IMG/VR virus record: IMGVR_UViG_3300014893_000043
DNA from: a virus
Lineage: Duplodnaviria; Heunggongvirae; Uroviricota; Caudoviricetes
DNA: 8,799 bases
Direction: 5' to 3' (one strand)
Below are positions 1,541-8,799 of this stretch, one piece after another. A program made the translations under genes and the position numbers. The notes under the pieces were generated by a model that ran no database searches, was not told the DNA's origin, and saw only the letters and a program-made list of their open reading frames with translations. Positions within the stretch are counted from its first letter, which is position 1. Each line of letters begins with the position of its first letter.

Positions 1541-1845
1541 AACTCAGGAAAAAAATTTTTTTTCGGAAGAACTGTTCACACTGTTCACCTTTCTGTTTTC
1601 TCCTTTTATTTCAGTTTGATAGGTGGTGAATAATGGGTGAAGGGTGAACATTCGATTCTTCACCTCCGGCATTCTGCCGATGTGACTCATACCGGTGATT
1701 AATCCTCCGCACTGAAATCACTCAGGAAGAAAAAAGTTTTTTTTGATTTGATTGTTCACACTGTTCACCTTTCGTTTTTCTCTTTTAATTTCAGTGTGAT
1801 AACGGGTGAACATACGGTGAAGGGTGAACAGTGGATTGTTCACCT
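1541..1845. repeat. crr (cis replication region): two ~125-bp direct repeats (about 1541..1667 and 1719..1845), each with alpha-binding octamer iterons TGTTCACC / GGTGAACA
   Basis: Both units read ACTCAGGAA-A/T run-TGTTCACACTGTTCACCTTTC...GGTGAA...GGTGAAGGGTGAACA...TTCACC, with a ~50-bp spacer. Position just 3' of alpha matches P4 crr. Confidence 0.75.
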
Positions 1846-1903: not shown

Positions 1904-4236
1904 TCAGGTTGTTGCAGGGTCGTCACATTTTGGCAGCCAGTCGCCGTAGCTTTCCTCTTTCAGCGTCAGGTTGGTCTGTATCCCCTGTTTGGTATGGCGC
2001 TTCTCGTAATTCAGCCCGTATTCCTTCAGCATCACCGGCAGCCCCAGCCCGAACATTTTCAGACTGAGTACATTCCGGTAGCCGTTTGCCTCCATGTAGG
2101 CCAGATAGGCGTGATAGAGGTATTTACGGTAGTTACGCGGGATGATACTGGCGTTCCCCATATACATGCCGCTGGTCTGCGGCAGGGGTTCCAGATAGCC
2201 GATAAAATCAAACGTCGGGTCGGCATCCCGTTTGATGTTCAGTGCCTCGTCTGAGTTCTGCTGGGACTGAAGCAGTGACCGGGCGAGCATCGGGTCGCTG
2301 AACTTCTGCATCAGGTGACGCACGATGACCGCCAGCTCGCGGGTGATTTTGTCCTTAAGTTGCGGGTCGCGCTCCTGCGGGGCTATCTGTTCCGGGAAGT
2401 GAATAATCACCCGCCGGCGTGACACGCCGCCGCTGCGGTCGGTGAAGCGCATCGGGTTATTGTTCACGGCCAGAATCACCGCCGGGATGTGCGTGGAGTA
2501 CGCATCCCGGTATTTCGGGTCAACGGACACTGCATCGCCGCCGGTGATGGCCTTGAGTCCGGCTCCGTCGCCGCTCCATTTTTCCTGGTCCGGCAGGCGT
2601 ATCAGTGAGAAGCCAGTTAACGCGGCACGTTCACGCGGGGATTCCAGCGTCTCGATGGTGGCCGACGTGGCGTTATCCTCACCGGCCAGCAGGGTGGCGA
2701 TTTCGGCCATGATACTTTTGCCGCTGCCGCCGGGACCGGTCACCTCCAGAAAGAGCTGCCAGTCGTAGCGGTTTGCCAGCACCATAAACAGTGCGGCCAG
2801 AATCACGTCGCGTTTTTCCGCACGGCCACCGGCGGCACGGTCAAGCCAGCGCCAGAACGCGGGGGCGTGGGTCTCCAGCGTTTCACCGTCCACCGGCGGG
2901 GTGAAATCCACATCGCACAGGGTGCGCATCCAGTGTGACGGACTGTGCGGATGGAACGTGCCGTTCTGCGTGTCGAGCACGCCGTTACGAAAGCCAATCA
3001 GGCGGCGGGAGGGGGCTTCCTGCTGCGGAATAATCAGTTTCAGGGTGTCCACCACGGAGGCCACCTTCCCGGAGGAGAACGGCGCGCGCAGACGCTGAAA
3101 CAGCCCGGCCACATCCCGGGCAAAGTCCTGTGGCGGCAGCACCTTCCAGACACCATTTTCATAGCGGGACAGAAGCTGGCCGTTGGCATCGACCGCGAGC
3201 GCCTCGCCGTAATGCTCATAGATACGCATGGCCTTTTCGCTGGTACTCATGGCGGAAAACTCTGCTTCGCTCATGGTGTCGAACGGGCTTTCAGCCGGTG
3301 GCCGGATGGCATCGTAAATGGCCTTACGGGTGGCCTCCCCGCCGTACTGCGTGAAGGCATCATTCCAGTCACCGAAGACCGGCGGCAGGGCAACAACGCC
3401 CTCACACGCATCTGCGGCTGCGGCGGCTTTTTTCTGGCCGTCACCGCTGAGGTCACGGTCTGCGGCAAGGACAATCTGACAGGCCGGATGCTTCTGCCGG
3501 GCAAGGCTGGCCAGAGAAAGGAGGTTCACGGAAGAAAGCGCCACCATCACCGTTTCACCGGTCAGGTGATGCACGGTAAGTGCGGTCGCGTATCCCTCCG
3601 CTATCCACAGACGTTTTCCGGCCTGATTCTGTCCTTCAAGGGTGTGACAGGTGCCCCTGACCTGTCCGCCTTTCAGGGTGCGCTTACGGCCGTCAGCACT
3701 GATTAACTGAAGGTTAACCAGTTCGCCGCTGTCGTCATACAGTGGCACCACAAGGTCACCGGCACGCCAGCTCACGCCACCGGCTCTGTGTGTGCCGGTC
3801 AGCATCCGGCATTCCCGGCCGGGAAAGCCCTTGCGGGTCAGGTAGGCGTTACCGGTTCCGGGACGGGTTTTCGCCATCAGGGTTTGTGCCAGTGCGGCGG
3901 CGTTCTTCCGGGCAGCGTCTGTTTCAGCACCGGCGGCGGCCGTCACTGCCGGGTCAGCCGGGGGCAGGCTGCCGGTCACGGCAGCCACCTTTGCGGCCGC
4001 GTCGGACGGAGAGACACCAAACACCTTTCCAACCAGTTTCAGGCCGTCACCGGCACCACACTGATTGCAGTACCAGGTGCCGCGCCCCTCCCTGTCATCA
4101 AAACGGAAGCGGTCACTCCCGCCACAGACCGGACAGGGCTGATGACGGTTTTTCAGCACCTGAATCCCCAGCGCCGGGAGANNNNNNNNNNNNNNNNNNN
4201 NNNNNNNNNNNNNNNNGCGGTTACGTTCATTTTCAT
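1904..4236 (-). CDS. alpha: P4 alpha: bifunctional DNA primase/helicase with origin-binding domain; interrupted by N-run 4182..4216
   Basis: 751-codon ORF 1904..4159 continues in frame to the N-run. Beyond the gap, ATG at 4236..4234 (MKMNVTA...) is preceded by AGGAGA. Zinc motif CPVCGG...CNQCG, primase acidic motif LAADRDLSGDG, Walker A GPGGSGKS. The span is 2333 nt, so the N-run length is not frame-preserving. Confidence 0.93.
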
Positions 4237-5162: not shown

Positions 5163-5442
5163 GCGTCCTGTCTCCCCGGTCTTTCTGCTGGGCGAGAAAA
5201 TCGCGGCACAGGCCTTTGGCTTTCAGCTCATTCAGCACAAAATCAATATCTTCATTCAGGTAACTGAAAATATGCGGAATGTAGAGCTGATGCAGGCCGG
5301 AGAGTTCACGGTGAATCAAATCATCCCCAACAAACTGGGATACGGCGCTGGCGCGGTTGAGCTTATGGTAAGCCTCAATGCTGAGGTGTTCACGGGCGTC
5401 ATGACGCGCTGAGACGGTCTGAGGGGCTTTTTTATTACGCAC
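5155..5442 (-). CDS. 95-aa protein; candidate P4 epsilon (E) antirepressor by size and position. Name is tentative
   Basis: GTG at 5442..5440 preceded by GGAGG with a 6-nt spacer. Product [32 protein letters not shown]...[11 protein letters not shown]. The 190-aa form in the ORF track extends upstream across another ORF's RBS and is not preferred. Confidence 0.5.
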
Positions 5443-5632
5443 GGGACACCTCCACCACCGGCAGACGGGCAGCAAGGGAGAGCACATAGTCACGGACAAG
5501 GGAACGGCGGGCACTGCGTTCATCACCGGCGACGGTGCGAAGCATACAGATACGGGGATGACGGTCTGTGCGACGGACAGCCGCAAACACAAAGACAAAT
5601 TCAGGGTGTGAGGGGGTAAGGGTTGTAGCCAT
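5435..5632 (-). CDS. 65-aa small ORF, first cistron after the leader; candidate kil-like function. Name is tentative
   Basis: ATG at 5632..5630 preceded by AGGAGG with an 8-nt spacer. Product [65 protein letters not shown]. Stop overlaps the downstream GTG start. Confidence 0.45.
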
Positions 5633-5662
5633 GATGGCAGCCTCCTGTGAATAGCAAATAAC

Positions 5663-5698
5663 GCTATCGCCGGAGTTTCCACGCTCGATGGCGATAGC
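5663..5698 (-). other. Stem-loop in the leftward leader, immediately 5' of the first ORF's RBS; candidate attenuator/terminator or part of the immunity RNA structure
   Basis: 9-bp inverted repeat GCTATCGCC (5663..5671) / GGCGATAGC (5690..5698) with an 18-nt loop. On the minus transcript it is followed by GUUAUUUGCUAUU and then the AGGAGG RBS. Confidence 0.3.
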
Positions 5699-5977
5699 CC
5701 AGACGGGGGTGGAAATACCGGCTTCACAGGATACCGGCCAGCCCGGAGGCTGCCCCGCCTGAGCTACCATTGACTCTGCGGCATAATGAGCGGACGCGGG
5801 CAGGATGCACGGAGTTCCATCTGCTCNNNNNNNNNNACGACTGACCACACACCACACCATAATCTGGCGCTCTGTGGCGTTGATTGCGACACAAAAAAAG
5901 ACGCATGGCGCGTCATATGTCGCCTGTGAATTGCTCGGGTTTCCACGCCCGGCTGCCGATTTTGCGGCAGCGGAAAA

Positions 5978-6007
5978 ACTATATCCGCAAATGCCGGAAA
6001 AAGGCAA
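5978..6007 (-). promoter_or_regulatory. Candidate sigma70 promoter for the leftward early operon (PLE-like)
   Basis: Minus strand reads TTGCCT (plus 6002..6007), an 18-nt spacer, then TATAGT (plus 5978..5983). Predicted start near 5971, about 395 bp downstream of the predicted PLL start, consistent with my recollection of roughly 400 bp PLL-PLE spacing in P4. Confidence 0.35.
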
Positions 6008-6042
6008 GCCAGAAAAAGGGAGTTTTTGCAGAGCGGGCATCA

Positions 6043-6309
6043 TCATGCGTCGTACCCCCGTTTGCGTCCGGCAATGCGCCCGGCCATCCATGCAGTGACT
6101 TCAGAGTGCAGCCAGGCCACATTTTTACCGCCAAGACTCACCTGCGGCGGAAATTCCCCCTTACGGATGAGTTCGTAGATGGTCGAGCGTGACAGGCCGC
6201 ACAGGTGCATCACTTCCGGAAGACGTAAAAAACGCTCCTGTGTGATGTCCGGCAGCGGCATCAGTGGCGTCACAGGGGCGGGAGACGGGGAAGAAAAAAC
6301 AGCTTGCAT
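6043..6309 (-). CDS. vis: Vis (orf88): AlpA-family helix-turn-helix regulator/excisionase, 88 aa
   Basis: ATG at 6309..6307 preceded by GAGGT. The protein carries an AlpA-like HTH (RFLRLPEVMHLCGLSRSTIYELIRKGEFP). Size and position (first gene leftward from the late promoter) match P4 vis. Confidence 0.8.
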   Translation of the reverse strand: MQAVFSSPSPAPVTPLMPLPDITQERFLRLPEVMHLCGLSRSTIYELIRKGEFPPQVSLGGKNVAWLHSEVTAWMAGRIAGRKRGYDA

Positions 6310-6411
6310 CGGGCTACCTCGTTAATGTCCATACAGCACCGGATAAGTCCGTCCGGCTTCGGGTAGCGCTTTATTTTGTGAATATTTTCGGCAGACGCAA
6401 CAGGGGGGATT

Positions 6412-6429: not shown

Positions 6430-6588
6430 ATGGCTGTGCATTTTTTGTACATCAGCACCAGATAGCTTTAAAACGCTCTGGAAGGAGCTGGAAAAAATTA
6501 TAGTGAAATACAAATTGTTTTTTCTTATTTATTTCAGTGAATTAATAAAAATAAAAAGTAATAAACAGCACAAAAAGCCCATCAACGG

Positions 6589-6692
6589 GTGAACAGTGGT
6601 GAACAGACGGTGAACAGTCATTACTGCGATTGTTCACCCTTTAACTTACTGTATTACTTATCTTTTTTCTTATTGTGAACAGAGGTGAACAG
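6589..6692. repeat. ori: iteron cluster of alpha-binding octamers in an AT-rich setting
   Basis: GTGAACAG repeated at 6589, 6599 and 6610 (10-11 bp phasing); inverted TTGTTCACC at 6630..6638; GTGAACAG / GGTGAACAG at 6675..6692. AT-rich flanks at 6510..6580 and 6640..6720. It lies about 4.8 kb from crr, matching the P4 ori-crr arrangement. Confidence 0.7.
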
Positions 6693-8740: not shown

Positions 8741-8799
8741 AACTCCCCGAAAATCCGCCCGTTTTTACTGAAAAAAGCCATGCATCGATAAGGTGCATG

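What the first reader, a model, noticed from the sequence alone, without database searches (positions are those of the whole stretch)
5633..6042. Immunity/leader region: candidate PLE, structured untranslated leader and a hairpin abutting the first ORF's RBS; partly N-masked
About 340 nt separate the predicted PLE start (near 5971) from the first RBS (5641..5646) with no credible ORF, which fits the P4 leader encoding the small immunity RNA (CI) that causes premature termination. A 9-bp stem-loop (5663..5698) followed by a U-rich tract lies just upstream of the RBS, and a 7-bp hairpin (5952..5971) sits at the predicted transcript 5' end. I could not place the CI RNA or its complementary sequences exactly; a 10-nt N-run (5827..5836) falls inside this region.
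Basis: partly seen in the sequence, partly recalled or inferred. Interest (0 to 1): 0.45.

Follow-up and report, generated by a model that had tools for sequence, protein, structure and literature searches.

The report
P4-type antisense-RNA immunity leader
This stretch is the well-known RNA-based "immunity" switch of a P4-like satellite prophage: a small antisense RNA (CI), its two target sites, a promoter and a terminator. It is near-identical to phage P4 itself, so it is real but ordinary.

Summary
Window 5400-6320 (minus strand) is 96.6% identical to phage P4 and 98.2% to E. coli P4-like prophages.

- CI RNA (C4 family) at 5774-5687.
- The seqA/IsrK-like 5' leader RNA at 5971-5894, which ends in an intrinsic terminator (P4 t1 equivalent).
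- P_LE is TTGCCT-18-TATAGT at 6007-5978.

CI carries two exposed patches, b' (5730-5723) and a' (5715-5709). They are complementary to a1/b1 upstream and to a2/b2 downstream, and b2 covers the kil Shine-Dalgarno. In 115 distinct related leaders all four contacts are 99-100% paired, with compensatory changes at 6/7 and 6/8 positions.

Corrections:
- The leader is not ORF-free. It is open in the kil frame (P4 eta, 203 codons), and that frame is kept in 81/84 relatives.
- The 9-bp hairpin is real and covaries, but its 5' arm is CI's own 3' strand and its U-tail is not conserved.
- The N-run sits in a 12-nt insertion found in no relative, in a variable spacer of a draft-quality assembly.

Relative to P4, the window carries a 2-nt swap at site a, compensated at all three sites.

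The parts
5978..6007 (-). P_LE promoter: -35 TTGCCT (6007-6002), 18-nt spacer, -10 TATAGT (5983-5978). Predicted start is near 5971.
   Evidence: Promoter scan. Identical in P4. The -10 coincides with the 'consensus -10' annotated in P4 record X02534. The Rfam isrK model starts at 5971.
5894..5971 (-). seqA / IsrK-like 5' leader RNA (78 nt): hairpin H1, hairpin H2 displaying a1, single-stranded b1, then terminator t1.
   Evidence: Rfam RF01394 isrK at 74.9 bits (cut-off 50); RF03163 c4-a1b1 at 5984-5932, 50.2 bits. Fold. PMC3632133 and PMC4825925 equate IsrK-like RNAs with P4 seqA.
5952..5971 (-).
   Evidence: 99.5% paired in 115 leaders, with one-sided changes only.
5936..5951 (-). H2: 4-bp stem CGGG/CCCG whose loop displays target site a1 (GUGGAAA, 5946-5940).
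   Evidence: a1:a' is 99.9% paired with 6/7 compensatory positions.
5923..5930 (-). Target site b1 (UUCACAGG), single-stranded, between H2 and t1.
   Evidence: b1:b' is 98.9% paired with 6/8 compensatory positions.
5893..5914 (-). Intrinsic terminator: GACGCG-CCA-UGCGUC plus U7. It is the equivalent of P4 t1.
   Evidence: Terminator scan. It is the 3' hairpin of the isrK model. 98.6% paired in 115 leaders. That t1 lies between P_LE and cI is from Briani 2000, recalled from memory; the paper is not held.
5775..5892 (-). Variable spacer between t1 and CI. It contains the N-run 5827-5836 inside a 12-nt insertion (5825-5836) relative to all relatives.
   Evidence: Alignments. The insertion is absent from 83 related loci, from the listed E. 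coli genomes and from the genome, viral and metagenome collections. The spacer shows in-frame indels among relatives.
5687..5774 (-). CI immunity RNA (Rfam C4 antisense RNA): 17-bp basal stem and two hairpins. b' (CCUGUGAA, 5730-5723) lies in the loop of hairpin 2. a' (UUUCCAC, 5715-5709) lies in the single-stranded joint. The mature RNA is probably about 5768-5690.
   Evidence: RF01695 at 76.6 bits (cut-off 45). MFE -49.3 kcal/mol, z = -5.0. The basal stem is 99.9% paired with 8/17 compensatory pairs. The mature ends are inferred from the P4 literature (from memory).
5663..5698 (-). Its 5' arm (5698-5690) is the 3' strand of the CI basal stem and its 3' arm is 5671-5663. Its 18-nt loop displays target site a2 (GUGGAAA, 5682-5676). 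It is a conserved alternative to the CI stem.
   Evidence: 98.9% paired, 4/9 compensatory, slid controls 22-67%. a2:a' is 100% paired with 6/7 compensatory positions. The U-tail is not conserved.
5641..5651 (-). Target site b2 (UUCACAGGA, 5651-5643), overlapping the kil Shine-Dalgarno AGGAGG (5646-5641).
   Evidence: b2:b' is 99.2% paired with 6/8 compensatory positions.
5435..5632 (-). kil: 65-codon ORF, the first gene translated from P_LE transcripts. A C-rich, G-poor tract (5651-5592; 16 C against 4 G in 40 nt) lies at its start and looks like a Rho-loading site.
   Evidence: The 65-aa length matches P4 kil (Forti 1999, as summarised in PMC10111431). The Rho-loading reading is an inference.
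5435..6046 (-). eta: 203-codon frame. Its ATG overlaps the vis stop codon (ATGA). It runs through P_LE, seqA, CI and seqC and ends as kil.
   Evidence: open in 81/84 relatives, with lengths of 183-203 codons that all differ by in-frame indels. Pfam Phage_ASH at 92.1 bits. PGAP annotates the equivalent ORF in E. coli. PMC10111431.
6043..6309 (-). vis/orf88 (AlpA-family HTH), upstream of P_LE. It is transcribed from the late promoter and translationally coupled to eta.
   Evidence: Pfam Phage_AlpA at 74.2 bits. P4 ORF88 annotation.

Best explanation
This is the immunity (lysogeny-maintenance) control region of a P4-like satellite prophage, and it most likely works as in P4.

The constitutive promoter P_LE (6007-5978) starts a transcript near 5971. 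Its first 78 nt, the seqA/IsrK-like RNA, end at the intrinsic terminator t1 (5914-5893). Transcripts that read through carry the about 80-nt CI RNA (5774-5687), which is cut out of the leader and accumulates.

CI exposes two short single-stranded patches, b' and a'. They base-pair with a1/b1 just upstream of t1, which raises termination there and so autoregulates CI. They also pair with a2/b2 downstream, where b2 covers the kil ribosome-binding site. Without kil translation, the C-rich start of kil is free for Rho, and transcription stops before the replication genes (epsilon, cnr, alpha).

Transcripts from the upstream late promoter instead translate vis and then eta straight across the leader, which overrides the block.

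Shown here:
- Homology to P4 and membership of the RNA families.
- The promoter and the terminator.
- The exact complementary patches and their three-way covariation.
- The nested kil/eta frames.

Inferred from P4 work, not tested here:
- CI processing by RNase P and PNPase.
- CI-dependent termination and the role of Rho.
- Read-through from the late promoter.
For: - Identity to P4 is 96.6% over 921 nt, and 98.2% to E. coli prophages. Relatives covering at least 80% of the query occur in 973 of 5426 complete E. coli genomes.
- Three Rfam families score above their gathering cut-offs, in P4 order, and P4 gives the same hits.
- Promoter and terminator were found by scan.
- The CI fold has z = -5.0.
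- Across 115 distinct leaders the contacts are paired as follows: a1:a' 99.9%, a2:a' 100%, b1:b' 98.9%, b2:b' 99.2%. Compensatory double changes occur at 6/7, 6/7, 6/8 and 6/8 positions. Slid controls give 37-60%.
- 109 of 115 leaders have all four contacts perfect. With shuffled partners, the number perfect at any single contact never exceeded 44.
- The window differs from P4 at site a by AG->GA in seqA, CU->UC in CI and AG->GA in seqC.
- The kil (65 aa) and eta frames are conserved.
- The gene context is that of P4.
- Literature: PMC3632133, PMC4825925 and PMC10111431.
Against: - There are no expression data for this element.
- The leader carries an unresolved N-run and a 12-nt insertion, although these lie in a length-variable spacer and keep the eta frame.
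- The conserved hairpin 5698-5663 competes with the CI basal stem, and the simple model above does not account for it.
- The original P4 mapping papers (Sabbattini 1995, Forti 1999, Briani 2000) could not be read here. The positions of t4 and timm therefore could not be transferred.
Confidence: 0.9

Rival explanations
1. IsrK-type logic, in place of or in addition to P4 logic. The 78-nt t1-terminated RNA acts in trans as a small RNA. It pairs with the a'/b' patches of the long transcript or of free CI, frees the kil ribosome-binding site and so activates downstream expression, acting as an anti-antisense or decoy.
For: - The 5' RNA matches Rfam isrK at 74.9 bits.
- In Salmonella Gifsy-1, IsrK made in trans opens an inactive structure of its own long mRNA and activates translation of the downstream ORF (PMC4825925).
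- The 150-nt fold of CI plus seqC pairs a' with a2 and b' with b2 in cis and buries the Shine-Dalgarno. An excess of a1/b1 RNA could in principle compete with that pairing.
Against: - In P4 itself (96.6% identical) seqA is described as a target that promotes termination, not as an activator (PMC4825925 discussion; PMC10111431).
- The downstream genes here are P4 replication genes, not anrP/antQ.
- There is no test of trans activity here.
Confidence: 0.15
2. The immunity factor is a protein encoded by the long open frame (the historical P4 'cI/ash' 137-aa product, Pfam Phage_ASH), and the RNA matches are incidental.
For: - The frame is open and conserved in 81/84 relatives.
- Pfam Phage_ASH scores 92 bits.
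- The old P4 records and RefSeq still annotate a 'cI gene product' or 'transcriptional repressor' here.
Against: - The variable positions change in step at three separate RNA sites so as to keep base-pairing. Selection on a protein does not predict that.
- The CI stems covary.
- P4 genetics assigns immunity to the RNA (PMC4825925, PMC10111431).
- No Shine-Dalgarno-preceded start lies between P_LE and kil.
Confidence: 0.03
3. The region is an inert remnant of a decayed prophage. The sequence is P4-like but no longer regulates anything.
For: - Many P4-like islands are cryptic.
- This assembly has N-runs and small indels.
- The alpha ORF as listed is shortened by the N-run at 4182-4216.
Against: - Every element is intact: promoter, t1, CI, all four contacts, kil, eta, vis, epsilon, cnr, sid, delta and psu.
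- The apparent defects coincide with N-runs and homopolymers, which are typical of assembly quality rather than decay.
Confidence: 0.07

Closest known systems
Phage P4 immunity region (P_LE - seqA - t1 - cI - seqC - kil/eta)
   Same: - 96.6% nucleotide identity.
- Identical promoter and identical site b.
- Same order and spacing of all elements, same 65-aa kil nested in eta, and same flanking genes.
   Different: - Site a carries a 2-nt swap (GUGAGAA->GUGGAAA), compensated in CI and in both targets. Predicted cross-pairing with P4 CI at a2 falls from -13.5 to about -7 kcal/mol.
- There is a 12-nt insertion with an N-run in the spacer.
- The first pair of hairpin H1 is G-C here but C-C in the P4 records.
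P1/P7 immI: c4 antisense RNA with a1/b1 and a2/b2 targets upstream of icd-ant
   Same: - Same Rfam family (C4, clan CL00128).
- Same two-patch (a', b') logic, with one target pair upstream and one downstream that covers the ribosome-binding site of a small Icd-like toxic ORF.
- The CI segment shows 69-73% identity to the P1-like phages D6 and RCS47.
   Different: - There is no ant antirepressor downstream. The controlled genes are satellite replication genes.
- An eta-type overlapping frame and a late-promoter override are P4 features.
- Details of the P1 system are recalled from memory (Citron and Schuster 1990).
Salmonella Gifsy-1 IsrK / STnc1160 - orf45 - anrP locus
   Same: An IsrK-like 5' RNA ending at an intrinsic terminator, followed by a processed RNA of about 80 nt that shares complementarity with it, followed by a small ORF whose ribosome-binding site is structurally controlled (PMC4825925).
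   Different: - The outcome there is trans-activation of an antiterminator cascade and growth arrest.
- The downstream genes are different.
- Here the sequence is P4, not Gifsy-1.
C4-like RNAs of linear plasmid-prophages (N15 group: phiKO2, PY54) and other Klebsiella/Enterobacter phages
   Same: The CI and seqA segments match at 75-79% identity, and phiKO2 annotates a terminator there.
   Different: Only the RNA module is shared, covering 12-23% of the query. The rest of the locus is unrelated.

Membership tests
P4-type satellite immunity region | Nucleotide homology of the leader to P4 cI/seqA/seqC | tested here: met
   96.6% identity over 921 nt to X51522 8133-9041.
P4-type satellite immunity region | CI RNA with the C4-family cloverleaf-like fold | tested here: met
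   RF01695 at 76.6 bits against a cut-off of 45. Fold z = -5.0. Stems are 99.9-100% paired, with 8/17 and 4/5 compensatory pairs.
P4-type satellite immunity region | CI is complementary to one target upstream (seqA) and one downstream (seqC) in the same leader | tested here: met
   a1/b1 at 5946-5940 and 5930-5923; a2/b2 at 5682-5676 and 5651-5643. Three-way covariation in 115 leaders.
P4-type satellite immunity region | Constitutive promoter P_LE and intrinsic terminator t1 between the promoter and cI | tested here: met
   Sequence-level match only: TTGCCT-18-TATAGT, and GACGCG-CCA-UGCGUC plus U7. Both are identical or near-identical in P4. Activity was not tested.
P4-type satellite immunity region | The downstream target overlaps the ribosome-binding site of kil (65 aa), which is nested in eta starting upstream of P_LE | tested here: met
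   b2 overlaps AGGAGG. kil is 65 codons. eta is 203 codons from the ATG at 6046, and the frame is conserved in 81/84 relatives. PMC10111431.
P4-type satellite immunity region | P4 gene neighbourhood (vis; epsilon, orf151, cnr, alpha; sid, delta, psu; ori and crr iterons) | tested here: met
   ORF sizes of 88, 95, 151 and 106 aa, plus alpha at 751 aa or more, then 250, 166 and 190 aa. Pfam AlpA and Derepression. PGAP names in relatives. 11 TGTTCACC octamers against 0.31 expected.
P4-type satellite immunity region | CI accumulates as a stable processed RNA (RNase P, PNPase) | not testable with these tools
   This needs a northern blot or RNA-seq. A CCA follows the basal stem (5691-5689) in most relatives, which fits an RNase P substrate; that reading is an inference.
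P4-type satellite immunity region | CI-dependent premature termination (t1, t4, Rho-dependent timm) that keeps the replication genes off | not testable with these tools
   The only support is a rut-like C-rich tract at the kil start. The t4 and timm coordinates could not be transferred because the papers are not held.
P1/P7 immI (c4-icd-ant) | C4 RNA with a'/b' and duplicated a/b targets | tested here: met
P1/P7 immI (c4-icd-ant) | The antirepressor gene ant downstream of icd is the controlled output | tested here: not met
   The downstream genes are epsilon (Pfam Derepression), orf151, cnr and alpha primase-helicase. This is therefore not a P1-type immI, although it works like one.
Salmonella IsrK locus | IsrK RNA fold | tested here: met
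   RF01394 at 74.9 bits against a cut-off of 50.
Salmonella IsrK locus | Downstream orf45-anrP-isrJ operon; trans-activation by the short RNA | tested here: not met
   The gene content is that of P4. Trans-activation is not testable here.

The most novel reading that the evidence does not exclude
There are three linked possibilities.

1. Among natural P4-like satellites the CI RNA and its two targets form a two-site combinatorial 'address'. In 115 distinct leaders there are 5 alleles of site a and 17 of site b, reassorted into at least 31 combinations, and each is matched at all three places. I found no description of this population-level code in the searchable literature.

2. The window's type (a = GUGGAAA, b = UUCACAGG) shares site b with P4 but not site a, so it may be only partly cross-immune with P4. 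The two co-resident satellite pairs I could check differ in at least one site.

3. The CI 3' strand has a second, covarying partner (5671-5663). This implies an undescribed conformational switch between 'CI folded' and 'hairpin displaying a2'. It may be the atypical terminator t4, or a control on CI maturation.
Probability: 0.3. Interest if true: 0.45.

Novelty: already known. Interest (0 to 1): 0.18.

Why it matters
As an annotation, it fixes what automated pipelines miss. In related genomes PGAP annotates only an 'Icd-like protein' here, and the old P4 records still list a 'cI protein'. The functional elements are in fact RNAs, now placed to the nucleotide in this window.

The element itself is textbook biology, so it opens no new question. 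The side results could be useful to people engineering or typing P4-like satellites:
- a clean natural three-way covariation data set for an antisense RNA and its two targets;
- a catalogue of reassorting specificity alleles;
- a conserved helix that competes with the CI stem.

These side results would need experiments to become findings.

Tried and rejected
- **Canonical terminator reading of the 9-bp hairpin: rejected.** Its 5' arm is the CI 3' strand, and its U-tail is absent in most relatives.
- **Helix between the CI 5' strand (5770-5762) and the kil SD/AUG (5642-5634), suggested by the 150-nt MFE: rejected as unsupported.** It is 91.5% paired with 1/9 compensatory pairs, and a slid control reaches 79%.
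- **Small hairpin 5667-5662 x 5656-5651: rejected.** It is 77% paired.
- **Looking for what lies under the N-run: nothing found.** The 24-mer right flank and the pattern GTGGTCAGTCGT-N10-GAGCAGATGG gave nothing in the genome or viral collections. The two metagenome hits are unrelated sequences. No listed E. coli genome carries the insertion.
- **Reading the primary P4 papers: not possible.** Sabbattini 1995, Forti 1999 and Piazza 1996 are not held, so the t4 and timm positions and the mapped CI ends rest on memory and on secondary summaries.
- **First regex-based site extraction: failed.** It was too strict and was replaced by alignment-based extraction.
- **RNAduplex on whole CI against its flanks: uninformative.** The flanks share strands with CI.

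Full report
**What is there.** Read on the minus strand, window 6309-5435 runs as follows:
- An 88-codon AlpA-type gene (vis, 6309-6043).
- A sigma-70-like promoter, TTGCCT-18-TATAGT (6007-5978).
- A 7-bp hairpin (5971-5952).
- A 4-bp hairpin (5951-5936).
- A GC-rich hairpin followed by seven U (5914-5893).
- A spacer of about 120 nt containing ten N (5836-5827).
- A strongly structured 88-nt segment (5774-5687).
- A 9-bp hairpin (5698-5663).
- AGGAGG (5646-5641).
- A 65-codon ORF starting at the ATG at 5632.

**Identity.** The 921 nt from 6320 to 5400 are 96.6% identical to phage P4 (X51522 8133-9041) and 98.2% identical to prophages in E. coli chromosomes. 973 of 5426 complete E. coli genomes hold a copy that covers at least 80% of the query. 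Rfam, at curated thresholds, places three families:
- C4 antisense RNA at 5774-5687 (76.6 bits, cut-off 45).
- isrK at 5971-5894 (74.9 bits, cut-off 50).
- c4-a1b1 at 5984-5932 (50.2 bits, cut-off 46.7).

P4 itself and five divergent relatives give C4 and isrK hits in the same order. Published work equates the IsrK-like RNA with P4 seqA and the C4-like RNA with the P4 CI immunity RNA (PMC3632133; PMC4825925).

The rest of the window is the P4 gene set:
- epsilon (Pfam Derepression, 169 bits), orf151, cnr (106 aa) and alpha downstream.
- sid, delta and psu divergently upstream.
- 11 copies of the P4 iteron octamer TGTTCACC, clustered at 1582-1844 and 6588-6691, against 0.31 expected.

**Placing the antisense contacts.** CI folds into a 17-bp basal stem carrying two hairpins (MFE -49.3 kcal/mol, z = -5.0). 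Two patches are left exposed: b' (CCUGUGAA, 5730-5723) in the loop of the second hairpin, and a' (UUUCCAC, 5715-5709) in the joint before the basal stem.
- Their exact complements occur upstream. a1 (GUGGAAA, 5946-5940) is displayed in the loop of the second 5' hairpin, and b1 (UUCACAGG, 5930-5923) lies just before the terminator.
- They occur again downstream. a2 (5682-5676) comes first, then b2 (UUCACAGGA, 5651-5643), which covers four of the six bases of the Shine-Dalgarno.

**Is this more than chance?** I collected 160 related loci from IMG/VR through the Vis protein, plus P4 and E. coli prophages. That gave 115 distinct leaders.
- The four contacts are 99.9%, 100%, 98.9% and 99.2% paired. 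Compensatory double changes occur at 6/7, 6/7, 6/8 and 6/8 positions. Sliding the partner by 1-3 nt gives 37-60%.
- 109 of 115 leaders have all four contacts perfect. In 2000 shuffles of partners, the number perfect at any single contact never exceeded 44.
- The difference between the window and P4 is itself such an event. AG->GA in seqA, CU->UC in CI and AG->GA in seqC are the only changes inside these sites.

The pairing is therefore as well supported as sequence analysis can make it.

**How it most likely works.** Given near-identity to P4, the P4 mechanism is the best explanation.
- P_LE fires constitutively.
- Many transcripts stop at t1, which yields the 78-nt seqA RNA.
- Read-through transcripts yield CI after processing.
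- CI pairs with a1/b1 and raises termination at t1.
- CI also pairs with a2/b2 and blocks kil translation. The start of kil is C-rich and G-poor (16 C against 4 G in 40 nt), so an untranslated kil is a plausible Rho-loading site.
- Transcription then ends before epsilon, cnr and alpha.

The summary in PMC10111431 gives the same logic. It adds that eta, translationally coupled to the alpA homologue, is translated only from the late promoter, and that its translation prevents termination.

What I have shown is the anatomy, the homology and the covariation. Processing, termination and Rho dependence are transferred from P4 and were not tested.

**Correction 1: the leader is not ORF-free.** The kil frame is open all the way up to an ATG at 6046 that overlaps the vis stop codon (ATGA), which gives 203 codons. 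In 81 of 84 related loci the same frame is open. Lengths are 183, 184, 192, 195, 196, 199 or 203 codons, so every indel in the spacer is in frame. Residues 22-150 match Pfam Phage_ASH, and PGAP annotates the ORF in E. coli as 'Icd-like'. This is P4 eta with kil nested at its end.

**Correction 2: the 9-bp hairpin.** It is real and conserved: 98.9% paired, 4 of 9 pairs with compensatory changes, slid controls 22-67%. However, its 5' arm (5698-5690) is the 3' strand of the CI basal stem, which covaries just as clearly with the CI 5' strand (99.9% paired, 8/17 compensatory). The two helices exclude each other.

The U-rich tail that made it look like a terminator is present in the P4 lineage, but 69 of 115 leaders have at most 2 T in the first 8 nt. 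It is therefore not a generic intrinsic terminator. It displays a2 in its loop, much as the 5' hairpin displays a1.

It may correspond to the atypical Rho-independent site t4, which Briani et al. (2000) placed between cI and timm. That is my recollection, since the paper is not held. Alternatively it may act as a switch on CI maturation, because it would sequester the CCA that follows the CI stem. I could not decide between these.

**Correction 3: the N-run.** Relative to P4 and every relative examined, the window has 12 extra nucleotides here (N10 plus GA) and two substitutions within 11 nt of the run.
- The insertion is absent from 83 loci, from the listed E. coli genomes, from 185,579 species-representative genomes and from IMG/VR. 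The two metagenome matches are unrelated.
- The window has a second N-run (4182-4216) and several homopolymer-length differences from its closest relative.
- Relatives of the L036 type read GTCAGTCGAGCAGATGGCACTCC. The window therefore looks like two sequence ends joined across a gap of about zero length.

I read it as an assembly or masking artefact, although a real 12-nt in-frame insertion is not excluded. Either way it lies in the length-variable spacer between t1 and CI and touches none of the mapped elements.

**Beyond the finding.** The related leaders carry 5 alleles of site a and 17 of site b in at least 31 combinations. The alleles are reassorted rather than linked.
- The window's type shares site b with P4 and differs at site a. 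Predicted a2 pairing falls from -13.5 kcal/mol (cognate) to about -7 kcal/mol with the P4 partner, while site b is unchanged at -12.5 to -15.6 kcal/mol. Partial cross-immunity is the likeliest outcome.
- Two pairs of satellites that share a genome differ in at least one site.
- A few leaders (L022, L071, L021, L029, L100, L163) have a seqA or seqC module that does not match their CI.
- I found no description of this allele structure in the searchable literature. The primary P4 papers, which compared P4 with phiR73, could not be read.

**Verdict.** It is real, precisely placeable and conserved, and it is already known.

Noticed in passing
window 4182-4216: A second N-run (35 N) lies inside the N-terminal part of the alpha primase-helicase gene. 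It replaces real sequence of nearly equal length in the closest relative, with a 1-nt indel beside it. This is why ORF listing reports alpha as 751 aa rather than the 777 aa of relatives. Homopolymer-length differences at about 1185, 1729 and 6705 also point to a draft-quality assembly.
   Followed up: partly
window 1582-1844 and 6588-6691: The P4 iteron octamer TGTTCACC occurs 11 times (0.31 expected) in two clusters. One lies downstream of alpha, within two direct repeats of about 130 nt (1542-1669 and 1720-1849, about 80% alike), and looks like P4 crr. The other lies upstream of vis and looks like P4 ori. The 'terminator-like' hairpin at 6609-6638 reported by the scan is an inverted pair of these octamers, not a terminator.
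   Followed up: partly
window 5690-5698 with 5663-5671 and with 5753-5769: The CI 3' strand has two mutually exclusive partners, and both are supported by compensatory changes. The function of the second helix is unexplained.
   Followed up: partly
L022, L071, L021, L029, L100, L163 (leader regions): These are natural chimeric leaders in which the seqA (a1/b1) or seqC module does not match the CI allele. In L022, for example, a1/b1 are of one type and CI and seqC of another. They are predicted to have lost CI control at t1 or at kil, and they suggest recombination breakpoints between t1 and CI.
   Followed up: no
L001/L002 (P4 records), equivalent to window 5971-5972: Only the two P4 database records read GC where the window and all 80 IMG/VR relatives read CG. 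This makes the first pair of the 5' hairpin a C-C mismatch in P4. It is either an error in the 1980s sequence or a laboratory-strain change.
   Followed up: no
window 5435-6046; L001 758-1174: Pfam Phage_ASH, and the 'cI gene product' or 'transcriptional repressor' annotations in P4 records, are built on the translation of a stretch whose conserved features are largely RNA elements (seqA, CI, seqC). The protein family may partly reflect RNA conservation.
   Followed up: no
L033/L078 (same IMG genome 2531839450); L084/L087 (E. coli E1): Co-resident P4-like satellites carry different immunity alleles. They differ at both sites in the first pair and at site b only in the second. Two cases are too few for a conclusion.
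   Followed up: partly
L084 11916-13415 (relative of the window, beyond its right end): In the closest E. coli relative, a retron St85-type reverse transcriptase sits between psu and the integrase, in the known P4 defence hotspot (PMC9122126). The window ends at 8799, just after psu, so its own cargo is not visible.
   Followed up: no
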